IMG/VR virus record: IMGVR_UViG_2724679293_000033
Span: 1-25,904 of that record
DNA: 25,904 nt
From: a virus
Taxonomy: Duplodnaviria; Heunggongvirae; Uroviricota; Caudoviricetes
Strand: one strand, 5' to 3'
Shown: positions 1,908 to 25,286 of the stretch, piece after piece
Layout of the letters: every line of letters begins with the position of its first letter
Position numbering within the stretch: the stretch's first letter is position 1
Program-made: the position numbers and the translations under genes
Notes under the pieces: model-generated
The model's database searches: none
What the model saw: the letters and a program-made list of their open reading frames with translations, nothing else
What the model was told of the DNA's origin: nothing

Positions 1908-1959
1908 CTTCCATTAATCCCTGAATTGTTGGTTAATACGCTTGAGGATGAATGCGAAC

Positions 1960-1984
1960 AATAAAAAAGGAGCCTGTAGCTCCC
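1960..1984 (-). terminator. Candidate rho-independent terminator inside the leftward early operon
   Basis: Hairpin ggagc-ctgta-gctcc at 1969-1983; on the minus-strand transcript it is followed by UUUUUUAU; lies ~20 nt downstream of the 2006..2287 ORF stop. Confidence 0.5.
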
Positions 1985-2005
1985 TGATGATTTTGCTTTT
2001 CATGT

Positions 2006-2287
2006 TCACCGTTCCTTAAAGACGCCGTTTAACATGCCGATCGCCAGGCTTAAATGAGTCGGTGTGAATCCCATCAGCGTTACCGTTTCGCGGTGCTTCT
2101 TTAGTACGCTACGGCAAATGTCATCGACGTTTTTATCCGGAAAATGCTGTCTGGCTTTTTTGATTTCAGAATTAGCCTGACGGGCAATGCTGCGAAGGGC
2201 GTTTTCTTGCTGAGGTGTCATTGAACAAGCCCCATGTCGGCAAGCATAAGCACACAGAATATGAAGCCCGCTGCCAGAAAAATGCAT
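2006..2287 (-). CDS. Hypothetical protein (93 aa; alternative start at 2221 gives 71 aa)
   Basis: ORF in early-left operon; first ATG lacks a Shine-Dalgarno, internal Met at 2221 has a GGGG ~9 nt upstream. Confidence 0.4.
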   Translation of the reverse strand: MHFSGSGLHILCAYACRHGACSMTPQQENALRSIARQANSEIKKARQHFPDKNVDDICRSVLKKHRETVTLMGFTPTHLSLAIGMLNGVFKER

Positions 2288-2297
2288 TCAGTGGTTG

Positions 2298-2489
2298 TCA
2301 TACCTGGTCTCTCTCATCTGCTTCTGCTTTCGCCACCATCATTTCCAGCTTTTGTGAAAGGGATGTGGCTAACGTATGAAATTCTTCGTCTGTTTCTACT
2401 GGTATTGGCACAAACCTGACTCCAATTTGAGCAAGGCTATGTGCCATCTCAATACTCGTTCTTAACTCAACAGGAGATGCTTTGTGCAT
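2298..2489 (-). CDS. Small acidic early protein, possibly RacC-like
   Basis: 63-aa ORF; segment AHSLAQIGVRFVPIPVETDEEFHTLATSLSQKLEMMVAKAEADE resembles my recollection of RacC-type proteins of E. coli lambdoid prophages (unverified). Confidence 0.5.
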   Translation of the reverse strand: MHKASPVELRTSIEMAHSLAQIGVRFVPIPVETDEEFHTLATSLSQKLEMMVAKAEADERDQV

Positions 2490-2650
2490 ACCGCCTCCCG
2501 TTTATTATTTATCTTCTCAGCCAGCCGCTGTGCTTTCAGTGGATTTCTGATAACAGAAAGGCCGGGAAATACCCAGCCTCGCTTTGTAACGGAGTAGACG
2601 AAAGTGATCGCGCCTACCCGGATATTATCGTGAGGATGCGTCATCGCCAT
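2462..2650 (-). CDS. Hypothetical small ORF downstream of exo
   Basis: 62-aa ORF overlapping the exo stop by 10 nt and the next gene by 28 nt; no family recognised; could be spurious. Confidence 0.3.
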
Positions 2651-3321
2651 TGCTCCCCAAATACAAAACCAATTTCAGCCAGTGCCTCGTCCATTTTTTC
2701 GATGAACTCCGGCACCATCTCGTCAAAACTCGCCATGTACTTTTCATTCCGCTCAATCACGACATAATGCAGGCCTTCACGCTTCATGCGCGGGTCATAG
2801 TTGGCAAAGTACCAGGCATCTTTTCGCGTCACCCACATGCTGTACTGCACCTGGGCCATGTAAGCCGATTTTATTGCCTCGAAACCACCGAGCCGGAATT
2901 TCATGAAATCCCGGGAGGTAAACGGGCATTTCAGTTCAAGGCCGTTGCCGTCACTGCATAAACCATCGGGAGAGCAGGCGGTGCGCATACTTTCGTCGCG
3001 ATAGATGATCGGGGATTCAGTAATATTCACGCCGGAAGTGAATTCAAACAGGGTTCTGGCGTCGTTCTCGTACTGTTTTCCCCAGGCCAGCGCCTTAGCA
3101 TTAACTTCCGGAGCCACACCGGTGCAAACCTCAGCCAGCAGGGTGTGGAAGTAGGACATTTTCATGTCAGGCCACTTCTTTCCTGAGCGGGGCTTTGCTA
3201 TCACGTTGTGAACTTCTGAAGCGGTGATGACGCCGAGCCGTAATTTGTGCCATGCATCATCCCCCTGTTCGACAGCTCTCACGTCGATCCCGGTACGCTG
3301 CAGGATAATGTCCGGTATCAT
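2641..3321 (-). CDS. exo: Lambda-type exonuclease (Red-alpha)
   Basis: 226-aa ORF; sequence ([40 protein letters not shown]...GFVFGEQWR) matches lambda Exo as I recall it almost residue for residue. Confidence 0.97.
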
Positions 3322-4103
3322 GCTGCCACCTTCTGCTCAGTGGCTTTCTGTTTCAGGAATCCAAGAGCTTTCACTGCTTCGGCCTGTGTCAGTTCTGACG
3401 ATGCGCGAATGTCGCGGCGAAATATCTGGGAACAGAGCGGCAATAAGTCGTCATCCCATGTTTTATCCAGGGCGATCAGCAGAGTGTTAATCTCCTGCAT
3501 GGTTTCATCGTTAACCGGAGTGATGTCGCGTTCTGGCTGACGTTCTGCAGTGTATGCAGTATTTTCGACAATGCGCTCGGCTTCATCCTTGTCATAGATA
3601 CCAGCAAATCCGAAGGCCAGACGGGCACACTGAATCATGGCTTTATGCCGTAACATCCGTTTGGGATGCGACTGCCACGGCCCCGTGATTTCTCTGCCTT
3701 CGCGGGTTTTGAATGGTTCGCGGCGGCATTCATCCATCCATTCGGTAACGCAGATCGGATGATTACGGTCCTTGCGGTAAATCCGGCATGTACAGGATTC
3801 ATTGTCCTGCTCAAAGTCCATGCCATCAAACTGCTGGTTTTCATTGATGATGCGGGACCAGCCATCAACGCCCACCACCGGAACAATGCCGTTCTGCTTA
3901 TCAGGGAAGGCGTAAATTTCTTTCGTCCACGGATTAAGGCCGTACTGGTTGGCGACGATCAACAATGCGATGAACTGCGCATCGCTGGCATCACCTTTAA
4001 ATGCCGTCTGGCGAAGAGTGGTGATCAGTTCCTGTGGGTCGACAGAATCCATGCCGACACGTTCAGCCAGCTTCCCTGCCAGCGTTGCGAGTGCTGTACT
4101 CAT
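3318..4103 (-). CDS. bet: Single-strand annealing protein Bet (Red-beta)
   Basis: 261-aa [62 protein letters not shown]... matches lambda Bet; ATGA overlap with exo. Confidence 0.97.
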
Positions 4104-4108
4104 CCGTT

Positions 4109-4405
4109 TTATACCTCTGAATCAATATCAACCTGGTGGTGAGCAATGGTTTCAACCATGTACCGGATGTGTTCTGCCATGCGCTCCTGAAACTCAACAT
4201 CGTCATCAAACGCACGGGTAATGGCTTTTTTGCTGGCCCCGTGGCGTTGCAAATGATCGATGCATAGCGATTCAAACAGGTGCTGGGGCAGGCCTTTTTC
4301 CATGTCGTCTGCCAGTTCTGCCTCTTTCTCTTCACGGGCGATCTGCTGGTAGTGACGCGCCCAGCTCTGAGCCTCAAGACGATCCTGAATGTAATAAGCG
4401 TTCAT
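4109..4405 (-). CDS. gam: Gam, RecBCD inhibitor (98-codon form)
   Basis: [39 protein letters not shown]...VDIDSEV matches lambda Gam; the upstream in-frame region reaches a stop 26 codons up with no start, so only the short form is encodable. Confidence 0.9.
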
Positions 4406-4480
4406 GGCTGAACTCCTGAAAATGGCTGTGAAAAAATCGCCCGCGGAATGCCAGGCTGATTCGGAAAACAGGAAAGGGGA

Positions 4481-4771
4481 TTAGTGATTCAGACCGTTGC
4501 CGCGTCCGTCGAGAAAAACTTCCACGAGCAAGTCACGGGTATAAGTGCGCTCAATGCCGCGATGCAGATAAAGTCGTCCGCGTAAATTAGCTGATGCAGT
4601 CCAGGTACCATCTTTGCGTTTGACCAGCATTCCTGGCATGACCGCACCGCGATTAACGGTCTGCGTTCCGTAATGTTGATGAACCATAAAAACTCCTGCC
4701 CGTAAGCTGGGCTGCTGAACATATAAAGACTTCTGCGCGTATTCAGGCGGTGGATGGCCGCCGGTTGTCAT
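4481..4771 (-). CDS. Basic 96-aa protein, first sizeable ORF downstream of the pL region; possibly the C-terminal part of an N-like antiterminator, or a Kil-like protein
   Basis: ORF between the operator-like region and gam; same frame as an upstream 20-codon ORF (4858..4799) encoding arginine-rich MKRTRERRCDQ..., separated by a single TAG. Confidence 0.5.
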   Translation of the reverse strand: MTTGGHPPPEYAQKSLYVQQPSLRAGVFMVHQHYGTQTVNRGAVMPGMLVKRKDGTWTASANLRGRLYLHRGIERTYTRDLLVEVFLDGRGNGLNH

Positions 4772-4974
4772 AACTAAGCCGCCTCGTTGAAGCGACTAAG
4801 GTATGAAATGTTGAGTTGATTTCAGCTGGTCACACCGACGTTCACGCGTCCGTTTCATCCCTCGCACTCCCCGAAGCCTGCTGAAATTCAAGCTGCGGAT
4901 CTAAGCGGTCATCGCAACGGTGAATCAGGTGATTGCCGTATCGTTGTGTTGTTGCGATGAACTCATTTAAAACT

Positions 4975-5045
4975 GTAGTTGTTTTATCGTCAACAACAAA
5001 AGTTGTTTTGTTGGTTGTTTTAGATATAACTGGTTGTATTTAAGA
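4975..5045 (-). promoter_or_regulatory. Candidate oL/pL operator-promoter region
   Basis: Clustered GTTGTT/AACAAC inverted repeats and two TGGTTGT motifs (5012-5018, 5033-5039) that recur in the cI-cro intergenic region; correct position for leftward early promoter. Confidence 0.4.
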
Positions 5046-5137
5046 TGGATTTATTTTGTGACTTGCATCGCATAGCGATAACTGAAGCGAGGTCGTGGTG
5101 GTTTTTTTGAACGGTGTATGATGAGGGGAGGGCAAAA

Positions 5138-5170
5138 GAAAACCCGGCACGGTGGCCGGGTTTAGATGAT
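5138..5170 (-). terminator. Rho-independent terminator ending the cI-side leftward transcript (tImm-like)
   Basis: Perfect 6-bp stem cccggc-acggtg-gccggg at 5143-5160; on the minus-strand transcript followed by UUUUCUUUUG. Confidence 0.6.
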
Positions 5171-5237
5171 TGGTTAAGAGCGAGGGTAATGGGGAATGAA
5201 AAATCGCTTTACCTAATGCAAGGGTGCGAGCATTTTC

Positions 5238-5681
5238 TTAAGCACTAAAGAAAAAGTACATTGATAGCTTATAAAGTCCTGTTCCTGCAGCGATGATTGC
5301 TGGAACACCAAGCAATACCGCAAGCTTTGCGTCTGAAATCTTTCTATCGACAGCATCACTTGATGGCTTGTTTGTTAAGGATTCTTTTATAGAGTCCAGA
5401 CGTGCAAGAATAGTTATCATATTTTTGTCGATAGCTTTAACGTCTGTTTTAAGTTCATCAACGTCTCGTTTGATATGAGCAACATCGGACTCCAGTTTTG
5501 CAACTTTTTCAGGCATGTTATCACTCCCAGACCCACTGCTACCACTTGATTGTAGCATGTCCCATCTTTTTCCAGATATACCTGCTAGCTGGGAAGACGC
5601 ACTGGAGTGCAAACAAAATGATTCTGCCGCCTTTGCAATTTTATCATTTAGGTTTGGAGCTTCGTAATAATCGTGTTTCAT
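5238..5681 (-). CDS. Uncharacterised 147-aa protein with central coiled-coil-like segment and C-terminal hydrophobic helix (predicted membrane anchor)
   Basis: ORF co-oriented with cI; heptad-like EKVAKLESDVAHIKRDVDELKTDVKAIDKNMITILARLDSIKESL followed by LAVLLGVPAIIAAGTGLYKL; AT-rich; no family recognised. Confidence 0.6.
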   Translation of the reverse strand: MKHDYYEAPNLNDKIAKAAESFCLHSSASSQLAGISGKRWDMLQSSGSSGSGSDNMPEKVAKLESDVAHIKRDVDELKTDVKAIDKNMITILARLDSIKESLTNKPSSDAVDRKISDAKLAVLLGVPAIIAAGTGLYKLSMYFFFSA

Positions 5682-5693
5682 AATTAATTACGA

Positions 5694-5957
5694 TTAGTTT
5701 GTTTTAGCTTTGTCATGCTGGTCGCGAATGAAGTCAGCCAATTTAAGCATCAATTCTTCGGGCATTCTAATGGTTGCAATGTTGTACTTTATGTTCTCAA
5801 CATCGTCACTTTCATCAACAGGCCATTCAGTTACATTATGAAAAAAAGAAATTGAACCTAGGCGCTGAGAGCCGTCACCAAACGAAGAGTAGCCAAACGC
5901 GTCGGCGTATGCATCGACACAGTTATTTGATTTTTTAACAAGTGTTTTATTACTCAT
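5694..5957 (-). CDS. Uncharacterised 87-aa acidic protein
   Basis: ORF 12 nt upstream of the 147-aa gene on the same strand, directly downstream of cI; no family recognised. Confidence 0.55.
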   Translation of the reverse strand: MSNKTLVKKSNNCVDAYADAFGYSSFGDGSQRLGSISFFHNVTEWPVDESDDVENIKYNIATIRMPEELMLKLADFIRDQHDKAKTN

Positions 5958-6038
5958 TTTTGCCTTTCCCGTAATGTTATTTTTTATAAGGTATTTTCTT
6001 CAGCGTATTACCCAAAAGCCTCATCAACACGCGGCTGA

Positions 6039-6728
6039 TTATCCGTGTTTTCTGTACGTCTGCGGCATGCTCCCAATAACCTTACCGAATATGAATACCC
6101 GGTTCATCTCGTCTTTCTCGATAGGGTCCCACGGTGAGTAGCTCTTGTTATCAGAGATAACCAGCAGTTTATCCTTCATCATTTGCAGGCGCTTTACATG
6201 GGCGGTGTCGTCGTACAGAAATGCATAGATACCATCACCGTCGAAAGATTTAACCGTGATATCAACGAACAGCAGATCACCTGGTTCGATCGTTCCTGAC
6301 ATGCTGTCACCACGCACGTTAATGATGCGGATATTTTCTGCCTTCCTACCATCGAACATGTGACGAGCATCGTCAAACGAGTACTCAACCGAGCGTAGAA
6401 CTTCTACAAACTCACGGTTGATGACTCCCGGCCCAGCACTGACTTCTATATCAAGAACGTCAATCTTGAAGTATTTGGAATGGCTGACAGTTGATTGTAT
6501 TGGTTGCACTGTACTGTCTGACATATTTCCAACGCCAGAAGATAACCATTCTGCGCGCACACCCAAAGCGTTCGCGATCTCCACGATTTTAGTTGTTTGA
6601 TTAGCTTTCCCTGTTTCGATTTTCTGAATAGCAGCCTGGCTAACCCCGACCAAATCCCCAAGCGCCTTTTGTGTAAGGCCTCGCGCTAATCTGGCTTCTT
6701 TAAGTCTTTCTGAGAGTGTTGTTTTCAT
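6039..6728 (-). CDS. cI: CI-type prophage repressor (HTH_XRE N-domain + LexA/S24-like C-domain)
   Basis: Start at MKTTLSERLKEARLARGLTQKALGDLVGVSQAAIQKIE (helix-turn-helix); C-terminal region with NVRGDSMSGTIEPGDLLFVD and VKRL (Ser/Lys autocleavage dyad context); divergent from cro. Confidence 0.9.
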   Translation of the reverse strand: MKTTLSERLKEARLARGLTQKALGDLVGVSQAAIQKIETGKANQTTKIVEIANALGVRAEWLSSGVGNMSDSTVQPIQSTVSHSKYFKIDVLDIEVSAGPGVINREFVEVLRSVEYSFDDARHMFDGRKAENIRIINVRGDSMSGTIEPGDLLFVDITVKSFDGDGIYAFLYDDTAHVKRLQMMKDKLLVISDNKSYSPWDPIEKDEMNRVFIFGKVIGSMPQTYRKHG

Positions 6729-6832
6729 AGTCCAAATGTACAACCAAGGTTTTATTCCATCAAACGAAAATGGTTGTTGACTAAAAACAACCATGGTTTT
6801 AATCTTGATTCAAATTAACCACGGAGGTTGTT
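6729..6832. promoter_or_regulatory. oR region with divergent pRM (leftward) and pR (rightward)
   Basis: pR: TTGACT (6777-6782), 17-nt spacer, TAATCT (6800-6805). pRM candidate on minus strand: TTGATG-17-TACATT ending ~6 nt before the cI ATG (leaderless-like). TGGTTGT/ACAACCA motifs at 6740-6749, 6771-6779, 6787-6796 plus palindrome AACCATGGTT. Confidence 0.6.
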
Positions 6833-7063
6833 ATGAACCCAGCTATCAAAACAGCGATCAATATCGTTGGTTCACAAAAGAAACTGGGCGCTGCCTGCGA
6901 AGTTTCACAGCAGGCCGTCTATAAGTGGCTTCACAACAAAGCAAAGGTATCCCCTGAACATGTCGGCAGCATTGTTACGGCTACTGGTGGAGTAGTGAAG
7001 GCATACCAGATTCGCCCGGATCTTCCGAAGTTGTTTCCACACACCGAAAAGAACGCAGCTTAA
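6833..7063 (+). CDS. cro: Cro-like HTH repressor
   Basis: 76-aa ORF divergent from cI, preceded by GGAGG; HTH-like segment QKKLGAACEVSQQAVYKWLHNK. Confidence 0.8.
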   Translation: MNPAIKTAINIVGSQKKLGAACEVSQQAVYKWLHNKAKVSPEHVGSIVTATGGVVKAYQIRPDLPKLFPHTEKNAA

Positions 7064-7075
7064 ATTTCCATTTCA

Positions 7076-7087
7076 CGCTCTTTAACA
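7076..7087 (+). promoter_or_regulatory. boxA-like element (candidate nutR)
   Basis: CGCTCTTTAACA just downstream of cro matches the boxA consensus (lambda nut boxA CGCTCTTA; rrn boxA GCTCTTTAACAA); no obvious boxB hairpin found next to it. Confidence 0.4.
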
Positions 7088-7132
7088 ATAAGCAATCAAC
7101 TTAACAGTCAATTCAAACTAAAGGAGTCAATT

Positions 7133-7672
7133 ATGCAACCACTTCCATACCAACAGACTAGCGGATTTAGCCCGACTGCGGTGATAAATCGTTCTCAAAC
7201 AAAACAGGTGCCAGGCCACGAAAAAATCCGTGATGCCGTCCGCGCCTGGTCGGCTGTAGATAATCAGGATGTCGTTGCCACACTCATTGTGAATGAGTAT
7301 CGGGAGCAGGGCGGCGGCACCATCGATTTCCCTGATGATGTCAGCCGTACACGCCAGAAGCTGTTCCGCTTCCTCGATAACAAATTCGATTCTGAAAAAT
7401 ACCGAAATAACGTGCGTGAACTGACCCCGGCAATTCTGGCGGTACTACCGCTGGAATATCGCGGTTACCTGGTTGAGCAGGATAGCTTCATGGCTAGGTT
7501 GGCTGAAATGGAAAAGGAACTCAGTGAGGCAAAACAGGCTGTCATTCTCAACGCACCACGCCACCAGAAACTGAAGGAAATTAGTGAAGGTATTGTGTCG
7601 ATGTTTCGTGTGGACCCAGAGCTGGCTGGTCCATTGATGGCGATGGTTACTACCATGCTGGGGGCGATATGA
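7133..7672 (+). CDS. CII-like/early regulatory protein (179 aa), family uncertain
   Basis: ORF with AAGGAG RBS in the cII position between cro and O; no confident motif match. Confidence 0.5.
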   Translation: MQPLPYQQTSGFSPTAVINRSQTKQVPGHEKIRDAVRAWSAVDNQDVVATLIVNEYREQGGGTIDFPDDVSRTRQKLFRFLDNKFDSEKYRNNVRELTPAILAVLPLEYRGYLVEQDSFMARLAEMEKELSEAKQAVILNAPRHQKLKEISEGIVSMFRVDPELAGPLMAMVTTMLGAI

Positions 7673-7758
7673 CAGGTTCAGAAATGGCGAAAGCCGGTCT
7701 GCTGGAACAGAACCGACTTTCAGGTGCAAATCGTAACACACTCATTGCGGGAGGAATT

Positions 7759-16458: not shown

Positions 16459-16955
16459 TGCCTCCATCATTACGAAAAGCCGTTGCTGCTGCTATTGGTG
16501 GCGGAGCAATTGCTATAGCATCAGTGTTAATCACTGGCCCAAGTGGTAACGATGGTCTGGAAGGTGTCAGCTACATACCATACAAAGATATTGTTGGTGT
16601 ATGGACTGTATGTCACGGGCATACAGGAAAAGACATCATGCTCGGTAAAACGTATACCAAAGCAGAATGCAAAGCACTCTTGAATAAAGACCTTGCCACT
16701 GTCGCCAGACAAATTAACCCGTACATCGAAGTCGATATACCGGAAACAACGCGCGGCGCTCTTTACTCATTCGTTTACAACGTGGGTGCTGGCAATTTCA
16801 GAACATCGACGCTTCTTCGCAAAATAAACCAGGGCGATATCAAAGGCGCATGTGATCAGCTACGTCGCTGGACATATGCTGGCGGTAAGCAATGGAAAGG
16901 TCTCATGACTCGTCGTGAGATTGAGCGTGAAATCTGTTTGTGGGGTCAGCAATGA
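16458..16955 (+). CDS. R: SAR endolysin (lysozyme with N-terminal signal-anchor-release domain)
   Basis: N-terminal Gly/Ala-rich weakly hydrophobic segment [20 protein letters not shown] followed by lysozyme-like region (EG...D...[10 protein letters not shown]); start overlaps the holin stop. Confidence 0.85.
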
Positions 16956-17413
16956 ACAGAGTAACCGCGATTATCTCCGCTCTGGTTATCTGCATCATCG
17001 TCTGCCTGTCATGGGCTGTTAATCATTACCGTGATAACGCCATTACCTACAAAGCCCAGCGCGACAAAAATGCCAGAGAACTGAAGCTGGCGAACGCGGC
17101 AATTACTGACATGCAGATGCGTCAGCGTGATGTTGCTGCGCTCGATGCAAAATACACGAAGGAGTTAGCTGATGCGAAAGCTGAAAATGATGCTCTGCGT
17201 GATGATGTTGCCGCTGGTCGTCGTCGGTTGCACATCAAAGCAGTCTGTCAGTCAGTGCGTGAAGCCACCACCGCCTCCGGCGTGGATAATGCAGCCTCCC
17301 CCCGACTGGCAGACACCGCTGAACGGGATTATTTCACCCTCAGAGAGAGGCTGATCACTATGCAAAAACAACTGGAAGGAACCCAGACGTATATTAATGA
17401 GCAGTGCAGATAG
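16952..17413 (+). CDS. Rz: Rz inner-membrane spanin (i-spanin)
   Basis: N-terminal TM helix ([20 protein letters not shown]) followed by coiled-coil periplasmic domain; overlaps the endolysin stop; Rz1 embedded in +1 frame. Confidence 0.8.
17172..17354 (+). CDS. Rz1: Rz1 outer-membrane lipoprotein spanin (o-spanin), embedded in Rz
   Basis: Lipoprotein signal with lipobox LVVVGC then proline-rich [15 protein letters not shown]; entirely within Rz in another frame. Confidence 0.8.
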
Positions 17414-17444
17414 AGCTGCCCATATCGATGGGCAACTCATGCAA

Positions 17445-17738
17445 TTATTGTGAGCAATACACACGCGCTTCCAGCGGAGTATAAATGCCTAAAGTAATAA
17501 AACCGAGCAATCCATTTACGAATGTTTGCTGGGTTTCTGTTTTAACAACATTTTCTGCGCCGCCACAAATTTTGGCTGCATCAACAGTTTTCTCCTGTCC
17601 AATTCCCGAAACGAAGAAGTGATGGGTGATGGTTTCCTTTGGTGTTACTGCTGTCGGTTTGTTTCCAACAGTAAACGTCTGTTGAGCACATCCTGTAATA
17701 AGCATTGCCAGAGCGGCAGAAAACAACATTTTTTTCAT
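17445..17738 (-). CDS. bor: Bor lipoprotein (serum-resistance lysogenic-conversion protein)
   Basis: MKKMLFSAALAMLITGCAQQTFTVGNKPTAV... with lipobox LITGC; matches lambda Bor; opposite strand to the lysis genes. Confidence 0.85.
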   Translation of the reverse strand: MKKMLFSAALAMLITGCAQQTFTVGNKPTAVTPKETITHHFFVSGIGQEKTVDAAKICGGAENVVKTETQQTFVNGLLGFITLGIYTPLEARVYCSQ

Positions 17739-18097
17739 CTTATTATCCTGCATTGTTAAAAACGGCAGAATCCTATGTGACAACAATTAAACGATAGTTA
17801 AATGGATTGATGAAAATTAAAACTATATAGGTGGATGCTCAGCCTATTGGAGGAGGGGGGCACTCAGAATCCTGTGGAATGAAATAAACCGCTCTATCTG
17901 TCCATTACCCTTTTAGCTGCGCTGTATCGTCGCCGTATTCCCGCATTAACCATGACCGTAGCCCGACGGGGAATTCCTTCTGCGTGAGTGTGCGGGAATA
18001 ATCAAAAACGATGCACACCGGGTTTTACTGTGCTGACAGACGCAGGGTTACCCTCATAGTCGCTTTTCCGGTGCGATGGTGGAAGAAACCGGGATGT

Positions 18098-18292
18098 TTA
18101 TTCATCATCACTTTGGATTGATGTATATGCTCTCTTTTCTGACGTTAGTCTCCGACGGCAGGCTTCAATGACCCAGGCTGAGAAATTCCCAGACCCTTTT
18201 TGCTCAAGAGCGATGTTAATTTGTTCAATCATTTGGTTAGGAAAGCGGATGTTGCGGGTTGTTGTTCTGCGGGTTTTGTTCTTCGTTGACAT
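18098..18292 (-). CDS. ylcI: Ribbon-helix-helix (Arc/CopG-like) DNA-binding protein, YlcI-like, copy 1
   Basis: 64 aa; RNIRFPNQMIEQINIALEQKGSGNFSAWVIEACRRRL fits the RHH beta-strand plus two helices pattern; matches recollection of DLP12 YlcI adjacent to the Nu1 homologue. Confidence 0.7.
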   Translation of the reverse strand: MSTKNKTRRTTTRNIRFPNQMIEQINIALEQKGSGNFSAWVIEACRRRLTSEKRAYTSIQSDDE

Positions 18293-18572
18293 GAGGTTGC
18301 CCCGTATTCAGTGTCGCTGATTTGTATTGTCTGAAGTTGTTTTTACGTTAAGTTGATGCAGATCAATTAATACGATACCTGCGTCATAATTGATTATTTG
18401 ACGTGGTTTGATGGCGTAGATGCACGTTGTGACATATAGATGATAATTATTATCATTTTGCGGGTCCTTTCCATAATCAAAAACGATGCACACCGGGTTT
18501 TACTGTGCTGACAGACGCAGGGTTACCCTCATAGTCGCTTTTCCGGTGCGATGGTGGAAGAAACCGGGATGT

Positions 18573-18767
18573 TTATTCATCATCACTTTGGATTGATGTA
18601 TATGCTCTCTTTTCTGACGTTAGTCTCCGACGGCAGGCTTCAATGACCCAGGCTGAGAAATTCCCAGACCCTTTTTGCTCAAGAGCGATGTTAATTTGTT
18701 CAATCATTTGGTTAGGAAAGCGGATGTTGCGGGTTGTTGTTCTGCGGGTTTTGTTCTTCGTTGACAT
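18573..18767 (-). CDS. ylcI: Ribbon-helix-helix DNA-binding protein, YlcI-like, copy 2 (identical)
   Basis: Identical ORF in the second 475-bp repeat unit. Confidence 0.7.
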   Translation of the reverse strand: MSTKNKTRRTTTRNIRFPNQMIEQINIALEQKGSGNFSAWVIEACRRRLTSEKRAYTSIQSDDE

Positions 18768-18939
18768 GAGGTTGCCCCGTATTCAGTGTCGCTGATTTGT
18801 ATTGTCTGAAGTTGTTTTTACGTTAAGTTGATGCAGATCAATTAATACGATACCTGCGTCATAATTGATTATTTGACGTGGTTTGATGGCGTAGATGCAC
18901 GTTGTGACATATAGATGATAATTATTATCATTTTGCGGG

Positions 18940-19140
18940 TCCTTTCCTGCGATCCGACAGGTTACGGGGCGGCGACCTCGCGGTTTTTCGCTATTTATGA
19001 AAATTTTCCGGGAACCATGTCCGGTTTCTCTTCAAGTTAACTATATGAAAAATATAAAAACAGGTCTTCTGTGAACCGGACATGCACAAAAAATAGATAT
19101 GTAAACCGGACATGACCGGTTTTGTTGTGATTGTGAGGTG
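18940..19140 (+). other. cos site: cosN with lambda-identical cohesive-end sequence GGGCGGCGACCT (18967-18978) plus cosB with three small-terminase-binding repeats
   Basis: gttacggggcggcgacctcgcgg matches the lambda cos junction; repeats of AACCGGACATG at ~19010-19026 (inverted), 19072-19085 and 19104-19124 immediately upstream of the small terminase gene. Confidence 0.85.
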
Positions 19141-19161
19141 AGAGTTTTTGCGAGGTGAGGA

Positions 19162-19671
19162 GTGGCTACGCAGACTGAAGTTGCCAGGCATTTAAGTCTG
19201 ACCGATCGCCAGCTTCGCAGATTGCAGAAATTGCCGGGTGCCCCGATATCAAATAAGCGAGGGCAACTGGATCTGGATGCCTGGCGCGATTTTTACATAT
19301 CGTATCTGAGGAGAAGTAAAAACGATGTGCCTGATGGCGATAGCGAAGACGACTATGAGGAAAAATTGCTTATTGCCAGATGGGAACTGACAGCAGAACA
19401 GGCTGTTACACAGCAGTTAAAAAATGAGGTGTCAAAAGGAAAACTTATTGACACCGGGTTCTGTATTTTTGCCCTCAGTAAGCTGGCAATGGCGTTATCC
19501 AGTACGCTTGATTCCATCCCTTTATCCATGCAACGACAGTTTCCTGATTTAACACCGCGCCATCTTGACCATCTGAAAACCCTTATTGCTAAGGGGGCAA
19601 ATCAGTGTGCGCGGGCGGGGGATAAATTACCGGATTTACTTGATGAATATATCAGAGCAACAACTGAATAA
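19162..19671 (+). CDS. nu1: Terminase small subunit (Nu1 family)
   Basis: GTG start; N-terminal HTH TQTEVARHLSLTDRQLRRLQKL; C-terminal FCIFALSKLAMALSSTLDSIPLSMQRQFPDL parallels lambda Nu1 FCTFVLSRIAGEIASILDGLPLSVQRRFPEL. Confidence 0.8.
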   Translation: MATQTEVARHLSLTDRQLRRLQKLPGAPISNKRGQLDLDAWRDFYISYLRRSKNDVPDGDSEDDYEEKLLIARWELTAEQAVTQQLKNEVSKGKLIDTGFCIFALSKLAMALSSTLDSIPLSMQRQFPDLTPRHLDHLKTLIAKGANQCARAGDKLPDLLDEYIRATTE

Positions 19672-21571
19672 TATGATGAGTGCTGTCACAACAGCATTAC
19701 AGCCCCTGATAAGGGCATTGCCGGTGACGCCAGTTGAATGGGCTGATCAAAATTATTATCTGCCTAAAGAATCTTCATATGGTGAGGGAGAATGGAAAAC
19801 GCTGCCATTCCAGATCGCCATCATGAACAGCATGGGGAATGATCAGATCCGCACTGTTAATCTGATTAAATCTGCCCGTGTTGGCTATACAAAGATGTTG
19901 CTGGGGGTGGTCGGGTATTTTATTGAGCATAAATCCCGAAACAGTCTGCTTTTTCAGCCCACGGATTCTGCCGCTGAAGATTTTATGAAGTCTCACGTGG
20001 AGGCGACGATTCGGAACGTGCCATGCCTGAAAGACCTTTCCCCATGGCTGGGGCGTAAACATCGTGACAATACTCTCACGCTGAAACGCTTTTCATCGGG
20101 CGTCGGTTTCTGGTGCCTGGGCGGCGCTGCCGCCAAAAACTACCGTGAAAAATCCGTGGACGTGGTCTGCTATGACGAACTTTCCTCGTTCGAGCCGGAT
20201 GTCGAAAAAGAGGGCTCGCCAACCCTGCTGGGGGATAAGCGTATTGAGGGGTCGGTGTGGCCAAAATCCATTCGCGGCTCGACGCCTAAAATCAAAGGCA
20301 CCTGCCAGATCGAAAAAGCCGCTAACGAGTCGGCGCATTTTATGCGTTTTTATGTGCCCTGCCCGCACTGTGGGGAGGAGCAGTATCTGAAATTTGGCGA
20401 TGAGTCCACGCCTTTTGGGCTTAAATGGGAGAAGGACAGCCCTGAAAGTGTTTTCTACCTCTGTGAACATCATGGCTGCGTGATCCATCAGTCTGAACTG
20501 GACCAGAGCAACGGGCGGTGGATCTGTGAAAACACGGGCATGTGGACCCGTGACGGTCTGACGTTTTTCAGCGCCCGGGGTGATGAAATTCCGCCGCCGC
20601 GCTCCATCACGTTCCATATCTGGACGGCGTACAGTCCGTTCACCACCTGGGTACAGATTGTCTATGACTGGCTGGATGCACTGAAAGATCCCAACGGCCT
20701 GAAAACCTTTGTGAACACCACGCTGGGCGAGACCTGGGAAGAGGCCGTGGGCGAAAAACTCGATCACCAGGTACTGATGGATAAGGTGGTGCGTTACACG
20801 GCGGCGGTGCCTGCCCGGGTGGTTTATCTGACGGCGGGCATTGACTCGCAGCGAAACCGTTTTGAGATGTATGTCTGGGGATGGGCTCCGGGAGAGGAAG
20901 CCTTTCTGGTGGATAAAATCATCATTATGGGGCGTCCTGATGAGGAAGAGACGCTGTTACGTGTGGATGCGGCGATCAACAAAAAATACCGCCATGCGGA
21001 TGGCACCGAAATGACTATTTCCCGTGTCTGCTGGGACACCGGGGGGATCGATGGTGAAATTGTTTATCAGAGATCAAAAAAACACGGTGTTTTCCGGGTG
21101 CTGCCGGTAAAAGGCGCATCTGTCTATGGCAAGCCGGTGATCACCATGCCAAAAACCCGCAATCAGCGGGGCGTGTATCTGTGTGAAGTGGGAACGGACA
21201 CCGCAAAAGAAATTCTCTATGCCCGTATGAAAGCCGATCCCTCGCCTGCGGATGAAGCCACGTCGTATGCCATCCGTTTTCCTGATGATCCGGAGATTTT
21301 TTCGCAGACAGAGGCGCAGCAACTGGTGGCGGAAGAGCTGGTGGAGAAGTGGGAAAAAGGAAAGATGCGTCTGCTGTGGGATAACAAAAAGCGGCGTAAC
21401 GAAGCGCTGGACTGCCTGGTGTATGCCTACGCGGCATTACGTGTGTCCGTGCAACGCTGGCAGCTTGATCTGGCTGTACTGGCAAAATCCCGGGAAGAAG
21501 AGACGACCCGGCCAACCCTGAAAGAACTGGCAGCGAAGCTGTCCGGAGGAGTGAATGGTTACAGTCGCTGA
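19643..21571 (+). CDS. A: Terminase large subunit (gpA)
   Basis: From MNISEQQLNN the protein is collinear with lambda gpA (VEWADQNYYLPKES..., KSARVGYTKMLLGV Walker A-like, CPHCGEEQYLKFGD, DTGGID...); first 29 nt overlap nu1. Confidence 0.95.
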   Translation: MNISEQQLNNMMSAVTTALQPLIRALPVTPVEWADQNYYLPKESSYGEGEWKTLPFQIAIMNSMGNDQIRTVNLIKSARVGYTKMLLGVVGYFIEHKSRNSLLFQPTDSAAEDFMKSHVEATIRNVPCLKDLSPWLGRKHRDNTLTLKRFSSGVGFWCLGGAAAKNYREKSVDVVCYDELSSFEPDVEKEGSPTLLGDKRIEGSVWPKSIRGSTPKIKGTCQIEKAANESAHFMRFYVPCPHCGEEQYLKFGDESTPFGLKWEKDSPESVFYLCEHHGCVIHQSELDQSNGRWICENTGMWTRDGLTFFSARGDEIPPPRSITFHIWTAYSPFTTWVQIVYDWLDALKDPNGLKTFVNTTLGETWEEAVGEKLDHQVLMDKVVRYTAAVPARVVYLTAGIDSQRNRFEMYVWGWAPGEEAFLVDKIIIMGRPDEEETLLRVDAAINKKYRHADGTEMTISRVCWDTGGIDGEIVYQRSKKHGVFRVLPVKGASVYGKPVITMPKTRNQRGVYLCEVGTDTAKEILYARMKADPSPADEATSYAIRFPDDPEIFSQTEAQQLVAEELVEKWEKGKMRLLWDNKKRRNEALDCLVYAYAALRVSVQRWQLDLAVLAKSREEETTRPTLKELAAKLSGGVNGYSR

Positions 21572-21761
21572 ACTGCAGGCGCTGCGTCAGGCGCGCCTTG
21601 ATTTATTAACCGGTAAACGGGTGGTGTCTGTCCAGAAAGATGGACGAAGAATTGAATATACGGCGGCCTCTCTGGATGATCTTAACCGGGCGATCAATGA
21701 TGCGGAGTCAGTGCTGGGGACAACAAGCCGCCGCCGTCGTCCGCTGGGAGTGAGGTTATGA
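21555..21761 (+). CDS. W: Head-tail joining protein W
   Basis: 68 aa; LTGKRVVSVQKDGRRIEYTAASLDDL parallels lambda gpW [26 protein letters not shown]. Confidence 0.9.
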   Translation: MVTVAELQALRQARLDLLTGKRVVSVQKDGRRIEYTAASLDDLNRAINDAESVLGTTSRRRRPLGVRL

Positions 21762-23350
21762 AACGAACGCCTGTCCTGATTGATGTGAACGGTGTTCCGC
21801 TTCGGGAGAGCCTCAGCTACAACGGGGGCGGTGCAGGATTTGGCGGGCAAATGGCGGAGTGGTTGCCACCGGCGCAGAGTGCCGATGCGGCCCTGTTGCC
21901 CGCGTTGCGTCTGGGCAATGCCCGTGCAGATGATCTGGTGCGCAATAACGGGATAGCGGCCAATGCGGTGGCACTGCATAAGGATCATATTGTCGGGCAT
22001 ATGTTTCTGATCAGCTACCGTCCGAACTGGCGCTGGCTGGGGATGCGGGAGACTGCAGCAAAAAGTTTTGTCGATGAGGTGGAGGCGGCCTGGTCGGAAT
22101 ACGCCGAAGGGATGTCTGGCGAGATCGACGTGGAAGGGAAACGCACGTTTACGGAATTTATCCGTGAAGGTGTGGGCGTTCATGCGTTTAACGGCGAAAT
22201 CTTTGTGCAGCCGGTCTGGGATACGGAGAGCACGCAACTGTTTCGTACGCGTTTTAAAGCCGTGAGTCCGAAACGGGTGGACACGCCAGGACACGGTATG
22301 GGGAACCGTTTTCTGCGGGCCGGGGTGGAGGTCGATCGATATGGCCGTGCCGTTGCGTACCATATCTGTGAGGATGATTTTCCGTTCTCTGGTAGTGGAC
22401 GATGGGAACGGATCCCGCGTGAACTACCCACCGGGCGTCCGGCCATGCTGCATATTTTCGAGCCGGTGGAGGACGGGCAGACCCGTGGGGCTAATCAGTT
22501 TTACAGCGTCATGGAACGGCTGAAGATGCTGGATTCCCTGCAGGCAACACAGCTTCAGTCGGCCATTGTGAAAGCCATGTATGCAGCGACGATTGAAAGT
22601 GAACTTGATACCGAAAAGGCCTTTGAATATATCGCCGGTGCGCCGCAGGGGCAGAAGGATAATCCGCTTATTAATATTCTGGAGAAGTTCTCCAGCTGGT
22701 ATGACACGAATAACGTGACGCTGGGCGGTGTCAAAATTCCGCACCTTTTCCCCGGTGATGATCTGAAACTGCAGACTGCGCAGGATTCAGACAATGGATT
22801 TTCGGCGCTTGAACAGGCGCTGCTGCGGTATATCGCCGCCGGTCTTGGCGTTTCCTACGAACAGTTGTCCCGGGATTACTCGAAGGTCAGTTATTCAAGT
22901 GCCCGCGCCTCCGCCAATGAGTCGTGGCGCTATTTTATGGGACGACGAAAATTTATTGCGTCCCGGCTGGCCACGCAGATGTTTTCCTGCTGGCTGGAAG
23001 AGGCACTTCTTCGGGGGATTATTCGTCCGCCACGGGCGCGTTTTGATTTTTATCAGGCGCGATCAGCCTGGTCACGGGCTGAGTGGATTGGAGCCGGAAG
23101 AATGGCCATTGACGGGCTCAAGGAAGTCCAGGAATCAGTGATGCGCATTGAGGCCGGACTGAGCACGTATGAGAAAGAGCTGGCGCTGATGGGCGAGGAT
23201 TATCAGGACATTTTCCGCCAGCAGGTCAGGGAATCTGCTGAGCGACAAAAAGCCGGACTCTCACGTCCGGTGTGGATAGCGCAGGCGTATGAGCAGCAGA
23301 TAGCGGAGAGTCGCAGGCCGGAAGAGGAGACAACACCACGTGAGACGTAA
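21758..23350 (+). CDS. B: Portal protein (gpB)
   Basis: 530-aa ORF following W with ATGA overlap; lambda-B-like length and position. Confidence 0.9.
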   Translation: MKRTPVLIDVNGVPLRESLSYNGGGAGFGGQMAEWLPPAQSADAALLPALRLGNARADDLVRNNGIAANAVALHKDHIVGHMFLISYRPNWRWLGMRETAAKSFVDEVEAAWSEYAEGMSGEIDVEGKRTFTEFIREGVGVHAFNGEIFVQPVWDTESTQLFRTRFKAVSPKRVDTPGHGMGNRFLRAGVEVDRYGRAVAYHICEDDFPFSGSGRWERIPRELPTGRPAMLHIFEPVEDGQTRGANQFYSVMERLKMLDSLQATQLQSAIVKAMYAATIESELDTEKAFEYIAGAPQGQKDNPLINILEKFSSWYDTNNVTLGGVKIPHLFPGDDLKLQTAQDSDNGFSALEQALLRYIAAGLGVSYEQLSRDYSKVSYSSARASANESWRYFMGRRKFIASRLATQMFSCWLEEALLRGIIRPPRARFDFYQARSAWSRAEWIGAGRMAIDGLKEVQESVMRIEAGLSTYEKELALMGEDYQDIFRQQVRESAERQKAGLSRPVWIAQAYEQQIAESRRPEEETTPRET

Positions 23351-24845
23351 TCTTTCACACATTATTGCCGCAGCATTCAATGAACCGCTGCTTCTGGAGC
23401 CCGCCTATGCGCGGGTTTTCTTTTGCGCGCTCGGGCGCGAGATGGGGGCATCAAGTCTTTCGGTACCACAACAGCAGGTACAGTTTGATGCTCCCGGAAT
23501 GCTGGCTGAAACGGACGAGTACATGGCCGGAGGTAAACGACCGGCCCGTGTTTACCGGGTGGTGAACGGTATTGCTGTACTGCCGGTGACCGGCACGCTG
23601 GTGCACCGGCTGGGGGGTATGCGGCCATTTTCCGGAATGACAGGCTATGACGGCATTGTCGCCTGTCTTCAGCAGGCAATGGCGGATAGCCAGGTGCGGG
23701 GCGTACTGCTGGACATTGACAGTCCGGGCGGGCAGGCCGCCGGCGCGTTTGACTGCGCTGACATGATTTACCGCCTCCGTCAGCAGAAGCCGGTCTGGGC
23801 ACTGTGCAATGACACGGCCTGCTCTGCAGCCATGCTGCTGGCGTCGGCCTGCTCCCGACGGCTGGTTACCCAGACATCCCGTATCGGCTCCATTGGCGTG
23901 ATGATGAGCCATGTCAGCTATGCCGGTCATCTGGCGCAGGCCGGTGTTGATATCACGCTGATTTACTCAGGGGCGCACAAGGTGGATGGCAATCAGTTTG
24001 AAGCGTTGCCGGCAGAGGTTCGCCAGGACATGCAACAGCGCATTGATGCGGCGCGCCGGATGTTTGCTGAAAAAGTGGCGATGTATACCGGTCTGTCTGT
24101 TGATGCTGTCACGGGAACAGAGGCCGCCGTTTTTGAAGGTCAGTCCGGCATTGAGGCCGGGCTGGCGGATGAATTAATCAATGCGTCGGATGCCATCAGT
24201 GTGATGGCCACGGCGCTGAACAGTAATGTCAGAGGAGGCACTATGCCGCAATTAACTGCAACGGAAGCCGCCGCGCAGGAGAACCAGCGAGTGATGGGGA
24301 TCCTGACATGCCAGGAAGCGAAAGGACGTGAACAGCTTGCCACGATGCTGGCAGGACAACAGGGCATGAGCGTTGAACAGGCCCGGGCGATTCTGGCCGC
24401 GGCGGCACCACAGCAGCCGGTGGCATCCGCGCAGAGTGAAGCCGATCGCATTATGGCGTGTGAAGAAGCGAAAGGTCGTGAACAACTGGCGGCAACGCTG
24501 GCGGCGATGCCGGAGATGACGGTGGAAAAAGCCCGCCCGATCCTGGCTGCTTCACCGCAGGCGGATGCCGGACCCTCACTCCGTGATCAGATCATGGCAC
24601 TGGATGAGGCAAAAGGGGCTGAGGCGCAGGCTGAACAGCTGGCTGCCTGCCCGGGAATGACTGTGGAGAGCGCCCGGGCTGTGCTGGCTGCGGGATCAGG
24701 TAAGGCAGAACCGGTCTCTGCATCCACAACCGCCATGTTTGAACGCATCATGGCGAACCATTCACCGGCAGCGGTACAGGGTGGCGTGCCACAGACGTCA
24801 GCAGACGGTGATGCGGACGTGAAAATGCTCATGGCCATGCCATGA
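23340..24845 (+). CDS. C: Prohead protease/scaffold protein C (S49/ClpP-like) with triplicated C-terminal motif
   Basis: GTG start overlapping B; collinear with lambda C (AFNEPLLLEPAYARVFFCAL, SPGGQAAGAFDCADMI, GSIGVMM); C-terminal third has three ~40-aa repeats EEAKGREQLA...MTVE.AR.ILAA. Confidence 0.9.
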   Translation: MRRNLSHIIAAAFNEPLLLEPAYARVFFCALGREMGASSLSVPQQQVQFDAPGMLAETDEYMAGGKRPARVYRVVNGIAVLPVTGTLVHRLGGMRPFSGMTGYDGIVACLQQAMADSQVRGVLLDIDSPGGQAAGAFDCADMIYRLRQQKPVWALCNDTACSAAMLLASACSRRLVTQTSRIGSIGVMMSHVSYAGHLAQAGVDITLIYSGAHKVDGNQFEALPAEVRQDMQQRIDAARRMFAEKVAMYTGLSVDAVTGTEAAVFEGQSGIEAGLADELINASDAISVMATALNSNVRGGTMPQLTATEAAAQENQRVMGILTCQEAKGREQLATMLAGQQGMSVEQARAILAAAAPQQPVASAQSEADRIMACEEAKGREQLAATLAAMPEMTVEKARPILAASPQADAGPSLRDQIMALDEAKGAEAQAEQLAACPGMTVESARAVLAAGSGKAEPVSASTTAMFERIMANHSPAAVQGGVPQTSADGDADVKMLMAMP

Positions 24846-24881
24846 AGCCAGTGCTGACCATCAACAGGAGGTTTTTACAAT

Positions 24882-25229
24882 ATGGTGACGAAAACTATCA
24901 CTGAACAGCGTGCGGAAGTACGTATTTTTGCCGGTAATGATCCGGCTCATACCGCCACAGGCAGCAGCGGGATTTCCTCGGCAACACCGGCACTGACGCC
25001 CCTGATGCTGGATGAGGCCAGCGGGAAACTGGTGGTCTGGGACGGACAAAAAGCCGGTAGTGCGGTTGGCATACTGGTACTGCCGCTTGAAGGCACAGAG
25101 ACGGCGCTGACCTATTACAAGTCGGGGACCTTTGCGACGGAGGCAATCCGCTGGCCTGAAAGTGTGGATGAACACAAAAAGGCCAACGCCTTTGCCGGCA
25201 GTGCCCTGAGTCACGCGGCGCTGCCGTAA
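24882..25229 (+). CDS. D: Head decoration protein D
   Basis: AGGAGG RBS; DPAHTATG...TPLMLDEASGKLVVWDG...AVGILV...YYKSGTF...AFAG parallels lambda gpD. Confidence 0.9.
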   Translation: MVTKTITEQRAEVRIFAGNDPAHTATGSSGISSATPALTPLMLDEASGKLVVWDGQKAGSAVGILVLPLEGTETALTYYKSGTFATEAIRWPESVDEHKKANAFAGSALSHAALP

Positions 25230-25286
25230 CACGTTATCAGGCCACCGCGGTGGCCTGACTGATTTCTGAATGAAAGGAACTGATTT

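What the first reader, a model, noticed from the sequence alone, without database searches (positions are those of the whole stretch)
17998..18947. Perfect 475-bp tandem duplication carrying a ribbon-helix-helix gene, immediately upstream of cos
Seen: 17998-18472 and 18473-18947 are identical at every position I compared, each carrying a 64-aa RHH-type ORF (YlcI-like) plus its upstream AT-rich region, which contains a near-palindrome ATGATAATTATTATCAT (a possible autoregulatory operator). The unit borders contain the short shared sequence tgcggg. Inference: a very recent duplication (gene-dosage change of a small DNA-binding regulator next to the packaging site) or an assembly artefact; perfect identity argues against an old event.
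Basis: seen in the sequence. Interest (0 to 1): 0.45.

Follow-up and report, generated by a model that had tools for sequence, protein, structure and literature searches.

The report
Probable assembly-made repeat beside phage cos
The perfect 475-base tandem repeat is really in the sequence, but it sits exactly where two different E. coli prophages seem to have been stitched together, so it is most likely an assembly artefact, not biology.

Summary
Window 17998-18472 and 18473-18947 are identical at 475 of 475 positions, with no homology at the junction. Each copy carries a 64-aa YlcI/DUF3950 gene on the minus strand, its upstream region with a perfect 7-1-7 palindrome, and the 7-bp cosQ site. 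So the repeat overlaps cos; it does not merely lie upstream of it.

The junction was not found in 5,426 complete E. coli genomes, 50,697 phage records, IMG/VR, GTDB representatives or JGI metagenomes. Every relative inspected has one copy.

Only three complete genomes carry the window's rare cos alleles. Against them the window is a chain of three separate prophages: A (argU/intD prophage, 1-18472, 0 mismatches), B (18473-25447, 0 mismatches) and C (25050-25904, 0 mismatches). A and B share an exact 1,830-bp tract. The first base that tells them apart is 18948, the base immediately after the repeat.

That pattern fits two overlapping contigs joined without trimming the overlap. It is not expected of a biological duplication. 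I put the artefact at about 0.78 and a real, very recent duplication in an already defective prophage at about 0.17. Either way the interest is low.

The parts
17998..18472 (.). Copy 1 of the 475-bp unit. It is the last part of the stretch that is 100% identical to prophage A (argU/intD prophage) of E. coli 7_33_46A.
18473..18947 (.). Copy 2 of the 475-bp unit. It is the first part of the stretch that is 100% identical to prophage B of DEC9B and F2_407_2_2.
18472..18473 (.). The novel junction ...GGGTCCTTTCC|ATAATCAAAAACG..., with zero microhomology. It was not found in any collection searched.
18098..18292 (-). ylcI-like gene, copy 1 (64 aa, DUF3950 / YlcI-YnfO family).
18573..18767 (-). ylcI-like gene, copy 2, identical to copy 1.
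18441..18455 (.). Perfect 7-1-7 palindrome TGATAAT-T-ATTATCA, copy 1. It lies about 150 nt upstream of ylcI and 6 nt from cosQ.
18916..18930 (.). The same palindrome, copy 2.
18462..18468 (+). cosQ heptamer GGGTCCT, an orphan copy with no cosN next to it.
   Evidence: The site is annotated in phage 434, OL657226.
18937..18943 (+). cosQ heptamer GGGTCCT in its normal place, 23 nt before the cohesive-end sequence.
18948..18948 (.). The first base after the repeat, T. It is the first position at which prophage A (G) and prophage B (T) differ. The T allele is rare.
18967..18978 (+). cosN cohesive-end sequence GGGCGGCGACCT, a single copy.
   Evidence: The lambda cohesive-end sequence is from established knowledge.
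18984..18984 (.). The second rare B-type allele (T; A and most relatives have G).
19162..19671 (+). Small terminase subunit (Nu1 family, 169 aa) of the B/C type. Prophage A of 7_33_46A has a different 181-aa gene here, and its homology to the window ends at 19011.
17445..17738 (-). bor/iss lipoprotein gene, downstream of ylcI on the same strand. The 97-aa form is the one annotated in relatives.
25050..25447 (.). A 398-bp stretch identical in prophages B and C, within which the window switches from B-type to C-type alleles.

Best explanation
The second copy is most likely not in the organism's DNA. It looks like an untrimmed overlap left when two assembled pieces from two different but related lambdoid prophages of one STEC-like E. 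coli genome were joined end to end. The first piece (int through lysis genes, bor and ylcI of the argU/intD prophage, 'A') runs to the last base that A shares exactly with a second prophage, 'B'. The second piece (B: cos, Nu1, terminase, portal, protease) starts 475 bases before the first B-specific base. Butting the two together writes the shared 475 bases twice. What is shown: the sequence anatomy and the match of each side to a separate prophage. What is inferred: that the join was made by software or by hand. I could not identify the assembler or see any reads. If one copy is removed, what remains is the ordinary right end of a lambda-like prophage: bor, ylcI, cosQ, cosN, cosB, Nu1.
For: (1) Window 1-18472 equals prophage A of NZ_CP074819.1 with 0 mismatches in 18,472 nt. 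Window 18473-25447 equals prophage B of DEC9B and F2_407_2_2 with 0 mismatches. In all three complete genomes that carry the window's rare alleles, A and B are separate prophages at distant loci with different early regions, and each has one ylcI unit. (2) A and B are exactly identical over single-copy coordinates 16643-18947. Their first difference is 18948 (A has G; B and the window have T), the base right after the repeat. Over 16643-19011 the two differ at only two positions, so a randomly placed border would land there with a chance of roughly 1 in 2,000. An exact-match algorithm stops at a single SNP, whereas recombination would be limited by the true end of homology at 19011. (3) The T alleles at 18948 and 18984 occur together in only 3 of 5,426 complete genomes, always with a single copy, so the SNP predates the repeat and is independent of it. 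(4) The junction is blunt, with 0 bases of shared sequence. (5) The junction was not found in E. coli complete genomes, phage records, IMG/VR, GTDB representatives or JGI metagenomes, and its junction ORF is not on record. (6) Every relative inspected has one DUF3950 gene here. (7) The window switches again, from B to a third prophage C, at 25050-25447. Only the same three genomes match 25300-25904 at 100%, and they do so at a third locus. (8) The B portal gene lies on contigs of 5-10 kb in 174 of 278 blocks, so assemblies commonly break around this roughly 7-kb segment. (9) A widely used assembler for such isolates uses k-mers up to the insert size (PMC6172800), so overlaps of several hundred bases between neighbouring contigs are plausible.
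Against: No reads and no source record are available, so the artefact is inferred and not shown. The left border (17997/17998) does not coincide with any paralogue breakpoint I could find. The IS3-family insertion in relatives is at 18035-18037, C homology starts at 17918, and the other contexts share only 25-29 nt. There are no Ns at the join. The B-to-C switch has no duplication, so not every switch in the window is a crude join. Prophage-mediated rearrangements are real and common in STEC, so an A/B hybrid could exist. If the source is a long-read complete genome, an internal artefact of this kind would be unusual.
Confidence: 0.78

Rival explanations
1. A real, very recent tandem duplication. 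It would have arisen by illegitimate, homology-free joining in a hybrid A/B prophage, or during the A x B exchange itself. It would give two expressed copies of ylcI and an orphan cosQ 475 bp upstream of the working cosQ-cosN pair.
For: The sequence is contiguous with no Ns. Each copy keeps the whole gene plus 180 nt of upstream sequence, so both could be expressed. Tandem duplications with homology-free junctions are known in phage lambda (my own knowledge). Recombination between prophages is common in STEC, so the A/B and B/C switches could be genuine.
Against: The right border falls exactly on the first A/B-discriminating SNP, which a biological event has no reason to respect. The junction is absent from every collection searched. 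The nascent end ...CCTTTCC has no complementarity to the sequence before 17998, so a template switch has nothing to prime on. The left part carries a frameshifted replication gene P, according to the annotation of the identical sequence. The prophage is therefore defective, and there is no selection on packaged length.
Confidence: 0.17
2. An older duplication kept identical by gene conversion, or kept by selection for a higher dose of the small DNA-binding protein or for a second cosQ.
For: Only the perfect identity of the copies and the completeness of each unit.
Against: An older event should appear in related genomes, and none of 5,426 complete genomes has the junction. All close relatives have a single copy. 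cosQ is required for nicking of the downstream cosN at termination (PMC4669245), so an orphan copy 475 bp away has no obvious role.
Confidence: 0.03
3. A by-product of terminase cutting at cos in the prophage: a broken end near cosN rejoined to another copy.
For: Copy 1 ends 19 nt to the left of the position of the top-strand nick.
Against: The end is not at the nick. No homology is available for rejoining. E. coli has no efficient end-joining pathway (my own knowledge). The coincidence with the SNP remains unexplained.
Confidence: 0.02

Closest known systems
False duplications from untrimmed contig overlaps at multi-copy prophage repeats in draft assemblies
   Same: The two copies are perfectly identical and the junction is blunt. 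The flanks belong to different paralogous loci. The border lies at the end of the exact repeat.
   Different: The left border is not explained by any breakpoint found. There are no reads and no assembly graph to prove it.
Right end of phage lambda and phage 434 (bor, DUF3950 ORF, cosQ, cosN)
   Same: The gene order is the same. Phage 434 is 98-99% identical over the unit. The cosQ heptamer GGGTCCT and the cohesive-end sequence GGGCGGCGACCT are the same.
   Different: Those phages have one copy of the unit. The window's cosB and Nu1 are of another specificity type (169-aa Nu1), and two rare SNPs flank cosN.
E. coli K-12 DLP12 prophage (intD ... nmpC/ompC-like porin, essD, rrrD, rzpD, borD, ylcI, nohD)
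   Same: The integration site next to tRNA-Arg is the same, and the same gene names are assigned by the annotation of the identical sequence.
   Different: DLP12 is truncated after cos. In the window the region continues into B-type head genes.
Spontaneous tandem duplications in phage lambda (classical genetics)
   Same: Head-to-tail copies with a junction that has no homology.
   Different: Those were selected for genome length in viable phage. The element here appears defective (P frameshift), and its border tracks a SNP between paralogues.

Membership tests
Tandem duplication (as a property of the sequence) | Two adjacent head-to-tail copies, with more similarity than chance would give | tested here: met
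   475 of 475 positions identical; TRF score 1900.
Genuine biological duplication | The novel junction is seen in independent sequences or reads | tested here: not met
   No match to the junction in five collections, and the junction ORF is not on record. Reads are not available.
Genuine biological duplication | Borders are independent of positions that merely distinguish paralogous copies | tested here: not met
   The right border is the last base before the first A/B difference.
Genuine biological duplication | Read depth and read pairs are consistent with two copies | not testable with these tools
   No reads and no source record.
Contig-join (overlap) artefact | The two sides of the junction derive from different loci in the closest complete genomes | tested here: met
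   A at about 3.98 Mb and B at about 1.90 Mb of NZ_CP074819.1. Both sides match with 0 mismatches: A in 7_33_46A, B in DEC9B and F2_407_2_2.
Contig-join (overlap) artefact | The duplicated segment lies inside an exact repeat shared by the two loci and ends where that repeat ends | tested here: met
   The exact A/B tract is 16643-18947, and the repeat occupies its last 475 bases.
Contig-join (overlap) artefact | The other border is explained by the assembler (k-mer or read length) or by another repeat boundary | tested here: inconclusive
   No breakpoint at 17997/17998. A length of 475 fits an insert-size k-mer, but the assembler is unknown.
YlcI/YnfO family (Pfam PF13132 DUF3950; NCBIfam NF041551) | Score above the curated cut-off | tested here: met
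   73 bits against a cut-off of 25; 37.7 bits against a cut-off of 30.
Ribbon-helix-helix DNA-binding proteins | An N-terminal beta-strand followed by two helices, with significant similarity to known RHH proteins | tested here: inconclusive
   The AF2 monomer has pLDDT 67, with helices at 19-32 and 34-63 and no strand. Two of the three Foldseek matches, including the top one, are Arc (1par) and ParD2 (7r5a), both RHH proteins (my own knowledge), but with E-values of 6-9. hhalign places the strand and helix A in register with Arc, with E 0.03 and probability 1.6%. No hit by sequence to the PDB.
Lambda-type cos site | cosQ heptamer, 12-nt cohesive-end sequence and Nu1-family small terminase in the canonical order and spacing | tested here: met
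   GGGTCCT at 18937, GGGCGGCGACCT at 18967 and Nu1 (PF07471) at 19162. cosQ is annotated in phage 434 at the same offset.
Fur box (7-1-7 form TGATAATnATTATCA) | Match to the consensus | tested here: met
   Two perfect matches, one per copy, and none expected by chance. Conserved in 25 of 25 fetched relatives. The consensus is from my own knowledge.
Fur box (7-1-7 form TGATAATnATTATCA) | Fur binding or iron-dependent expression | not testable with these tools
   Searches for ylcI/ynfO, one of them combined with Fur, returned no title pointing to such work; none of the papers was opened.

The most novel reading that the evidence does not exclude
The repeat is real: a just-arisen duplication in a hybrid prophage that doubles an uncharacterised small DNA-binding gene and places an orphan cosQ 475 bp upstream of a complete cos. 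That would be a natural construct for asking whether cosQ alone slows or perturbs a translocating terminase.
Probability: 0.15. Interest if true: 0.25.

Novelty: not a real feature. Interest (0 to 1): 0.08.

Why it matters
It matters mainly as a caution. A perfect duplication next to a packaging site looks like a gene-dosage event, but here its border follows a single SNP between two paralogous prophages, which is the signature of software and not of recombination. Anyone using this record for prophage typing, gene counts or cos mapping should treat 18473-18947, and the A/B/C linkage of the whole window, as unverified. If the repeat were real it would still be a minor, recent change in a defective prophage. 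The one point of possible wider interest lies outside the finding itself. A perfect Fur-type palindrome is conserved between cosQ and the ylcI-bor gene pair of these phages. It hints at iron-regulated expression of the serum-resistance gene bor/iss.

Tried and rejected
1. Crossover at the 'tgcggg' motif. Rejected: the motifs are 8 and 14 nt from the borders, so they are out of register.

2. IS insertion site as the left border. Rejected: the IS3-family element in relatives sits at 18035-18037.

3. Left border as a paralogue breakpoint. C homology starts at 17918. Thirty-seven IMG/VR contigs have G instead of A at 17997 but share only 25-29 nt beyond it. That is too short to matter, and my search was biased towards finding such a difference.

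4. Finding the source record or another copy of the junction. All attempts came back empty: 50-mer and 34-mer searches of five collections, a look-up of the junction-spanning ORF, and a look-up of contexts of the B portal.

5. Finding the rare B-type cos allele in metagenomes or IMG/VR in order to look at contig ends. No hits.

6. A known RNA inside the unit. None in Rfam, even at E up to 1.

7. Proving the RHH fold. The monomer model has low confidence and all similarity scores are insignificant.

8. A lesion-induced template switch that would create both the repeat and the G-to-T change at 18948. Rejected: the T allele exists in single-copy prophages, and the switch has no homology to prime on.

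9. A new promoter created by the junction. The only minus-strand promoter-like hit is TGGAAA-16-AATAAT at 18473-18446 (9/12), which starts at the first base of copy 2. It is a marginal consensus match and I did not pursue it.

Full report
**1.

Tandem Repeats Finder reports 17998-18947 as 2.0 copies of a 475-nt unit with 100% matches and no indels. A direct string comparison shows the copies are identical, and the identity cannot be extended by a single base to the left or right. The phase of the repeat is therefore fixed, and the novel junction is ...TTTTGCGGGTCCTTTCC|ATAATCAAAAACG... at 18472/18473, with zero microhomology. They are out of register and cannot be the crossover point.

**2. 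What the unit contains**

- On the minus strand each copy has a 64-aa ORF, at 18098-18292 and 18573-18767. It scores well above threshold for Pfam DUF3950 (E=1.8e-20) and NCBIfam YlcI_YnfO_N.
- Its upstream region runs towards cos. This region contains a perfect inverted repeat, ATGATAAT-T-ATTATCAT (core at 18441-18455 and 18916-18930).
- The last 11 bases of the unit are GGGTCCTTTCC. GGGTCCT is cosQ, annotated at the same offset in phage 434 (positions).
- To the right come the 12-nt cohesive-end sequence GGGCGGCGACCT (18967-18978, one copy), a cosB region, and a 169-aa Nu1-family small terminase at 19162-19671.
- To the left, on the same strand as ylcI, is bor/iss.

The repeat therefore overlaps cos. 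It duplicates cosQ but not cosN or cosB. According to PMC4669245, cosQ is needed together with cosN for nicking at the downstream cos when packaging ends, and it is highly conserved. An orphan cosQ 475 bp away from any cosN has no evident function (inference).

**3. Is the protein a ribbon-helix-helix?**

It is plausible but not shown.

- The motif IRFPNQMIEQINIALEQKGSGNFSAWVIEA resembles the strand-helix-turn-helix pattern of Arc and Mnt. hhalign places it in register with Arc, but without significance (E 0.03, probability 1.6%).
- An AlphaFold monomer model has pLDDT 67, with helices at 19-32 and 34-63 and a disordered N-terminus.
- Of the three Foldseek matches in the PDB, the top one is Arc (1par) and another is the ParD2 antitoxin (7r5a). 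Both are RHH proteins, but their E-values are 6-9.
- Sequence search of the PDB finds nothing meaningful.

**4. Relatives have one copy and nobody else has the junction**

- Phage and prophage relatives match the region with one unit. An O26:H11 genome (CP031922) has the exact 475-nt unit once, with both flanks contiguous.
- A 50-nt probe centred on the junction (25 nt on each side, so that only a junction-spanning word can seed a match) finds nothing in 5,426 complete E. coli genomes or in 50,697 phage records.
- An exact 34-mer finds nothing in GTDB species representatives, IMG/VR or JGI metagenomes.
- The only ORF of at least 30 aa (the look-up minimum) that spans the junction is not on record.
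- In every gene context retrieved for Nu1, YlcI and the portal there is a single DUF3950 gene or none.

**5. The window is a chain of three prophages**

Window 1-19011, minus one unit, is essentially identical to the prophage next to tRNA-Arg (intD, DLP12-like) of E. coli 7_33_46A (NZ_CP074819.1). Homology then stops, because that prophage has a different cosB and a 181-aa Nu1. All relatives first examined differed from the window at 18948 and, wherever their alignment reached that far, at 18984. A search with 18920-19011 found both T alleles in only three of 5,426 genomes: 7_33_46A, DEC9B and F2_407_2_2. In each of them the alleles lie in another prophage, at a distant locus with a different early region.

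| Segment | Window coordinates | Matches | Mismatches |
|---|---|---|---|
| A | 1-18472 | argU/intD prophage of 7_33_46A | 0 in 18,472 nt |
| B | 18473-25447 | second prophage of DEC9B and F2_407_2_2 | 0 |
| C | 25050-25904 | third prophage of 7_33_46A | 0 |

Only the same three genomes match 25300-25904 at 100%, and they do so at a third locus. The B-to-C switch lies in a 398-bp stretch that B and C share.

**6. The decisive detail**

In 7_33_46A, prophages A and B are exactly identical over single-copy coordinates 16643-18947. The first difference is at 18948 (A has G, B has T), the second is at 18984, and complete divergence begins at 19012. The duplicated unit is the last 475 bases of that exact tract. 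Copy 1 ends on the last base that A and B share, and copy 2 is followed by the first B-specific base.

The T allele exists in single-copy B prophages, so it is not a scar of the duplication. Over 16643-19011 the two prophages differ at only two positions, so the chance that a randomly placed border lands directly before the first difference is of the order of 1 in 2,000.

A recombination or repair process would be limited by the real end of homology (19011) or would run in register. In neither case would it produce a duplication. A procedure based on exact matching, such as a de Bruijn graph fork or an overlap cut at the first mismatch, stops exactly at the SNP.

The structure therefore reads as follows. 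One contig ends at the fork. The neighbouring contig starts 475 nt before its first unique base. The two were joined without removing the overlap. A blunt junction, perfect identity and uniqueness are all expected under this reading.

Two further observations make it plausible. Assemblies usually break around this segment: the B portal gene is on contigs of 5-10 kb in 174 of 278 blocks. At least one standard assembler for such isolates uses k-mers as long as the insert size (PMC6172800), so overlaps of several hundred bases between neighbouring contigs can occur.

**7. What argues the other way**

- I have no reads and could not find the source.
- The left border (17997/17998) matches no breakpoint. 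The IS3-family insertion in relatives is at 18035-18037, C homology begins at 17918, and other contexts differ at 17997 but share only 25-29 nt beyond it.
- There are no Ns at the join.
- The B-to-C switch shows no duplication, so at least that switch is either genuine or a clean graph path.
- Recombination between prophages is common in these strains, so an A/B hybrid may exist.

A real, very recent, homology-free duplication therefore remains possible, at about 0.17. Even then it would sit in a prophage whose replication gene P is frameshifted, according to the annotation of the identical sequence. Its effects would be limited to a possible doubling of ylcI expression and an inert extra cosQ.

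**8. Regulation of the unit, if one asks how the single-copy module works**

The palindrome is a perfect match to the 7-1-7 form of the Fur box, TGATAATnATTATCA (the consensus is from my own knowledge). It occurs only here in the window, with none expected by chance. It is conserved in all 25 cos-proximal regions among the fetched relatives, including a variant with a central C.

A weak minus-strand promoter-like element has its -10 hexamer inside the palindrome. Neither reading can be tested here. Searches for ylcI/ynfO (one combined with Fur) returned no title pointing to such work, and I opened none of the papers.

**9. Verdict**

The feature is most likely not real (0.78). Interest is low.

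Noticed in passing
window 18441-18455 and 18916-18930: The palindrome upstream of ylcI is a perfect Fur-type 7-1-7 box (TGATAAT-n-ATTATCA), 6 nt from cosQ. It is conserved in 25 of 25 fetched relatives. bor/iss lies downstream on the same strand, so iron-regulated expression of ylcI-bor is a testable idea.
   Followed up: partly
window 18948 and 18984: Two G-to-T differences flank cosN, 19 nt left of the top-strand nick and at base 18 of the left end. Both together occur in only 3 of 5,426 complete E. coli genomes. One further genome (CP110097) has only the first.
   Followed up: partly
window 25050-25904: The window switches from prophage-B alleles to prophage-C alleles inside the major capsid gene: 13 B mismatches between 25448 and 25706, and 0 C mismatches. 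The window ends mid-gene at 25904, 3 nt before the next B/C difference. This looks like a contig end in a multi-copy gene.
   Followed up: partly
window 1-1164: The window starts exactly at the stop codon of the intD-type integrase gene, which lies 16 nt from tRNA-Arg in the identical prophage of NZ_CP074819.1. This suggests the window was cut at a gene boundary by a prophage-extraction step.
   Followed up: no
window 8685-9279: Replication gene P is frameshifted, according to the RefSeq annotation of the 100% identical sequence, and the reading frame is split in the window. The A-type prophage is probably defective.
   Followed up: no
window 10348-10532: Rfam finds isrK (64 bits) and C4 antisense RNA (82.5 bits) side by side on the plus strand, just upstream of a P22 antirepressor-like fragment. 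This is a known immunity/antirepressor control module.
   Followed up: no
window 8110-8226: Four 22-nt direct repeats (TTACCCGAATCAGGTAA...) lie inside the O-like replication gene, with an overlapping palindrome at 8139-8174. They look like the origin iterons of a lambdoid replicon.
   Followed up: no
window 10006-10167 and 12328-12489: A 162-nt direct repeat (81% identity) brackets about 2.3 kb that holds isrK/C4, the antirepressor fragment, a HEPN-domain gene and a neighbouring ORF. It may mark an inserted module.
   Followed up: no
window 17918-18026: A block of about 110 nt around the left border of the unit (core GAGTGTGCGGG[A/G]ATAATCAAAAACGATGCACACCGGG) recurs in 37 IMG/VR contigs whose downstream sequence is otherwise unrelated. 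It holds a 37-aa minus-strand ORF, and Rfam has no match. Function unknown.
   Followed up: partly
proteins P0001-P0120: Most near-identical YlcI hits are singletons on ENA contigs of about 3.5 kb, and some carry names from unrelated organisms (Staphylococcus, Veillonella). This looks like contamination of assemblies by the 3.6-kb lambda control DNA used in nanopore sequencing. That is my inference and I did not check it.
   Followed up: no
L017, L020, L022 (relatives); equivalent to window 18035-18037: An IS3-family element is inserted between ylcI and bor in several STEC prophages, with a 3-bp overlap of the flanks.
   Followed up: partly
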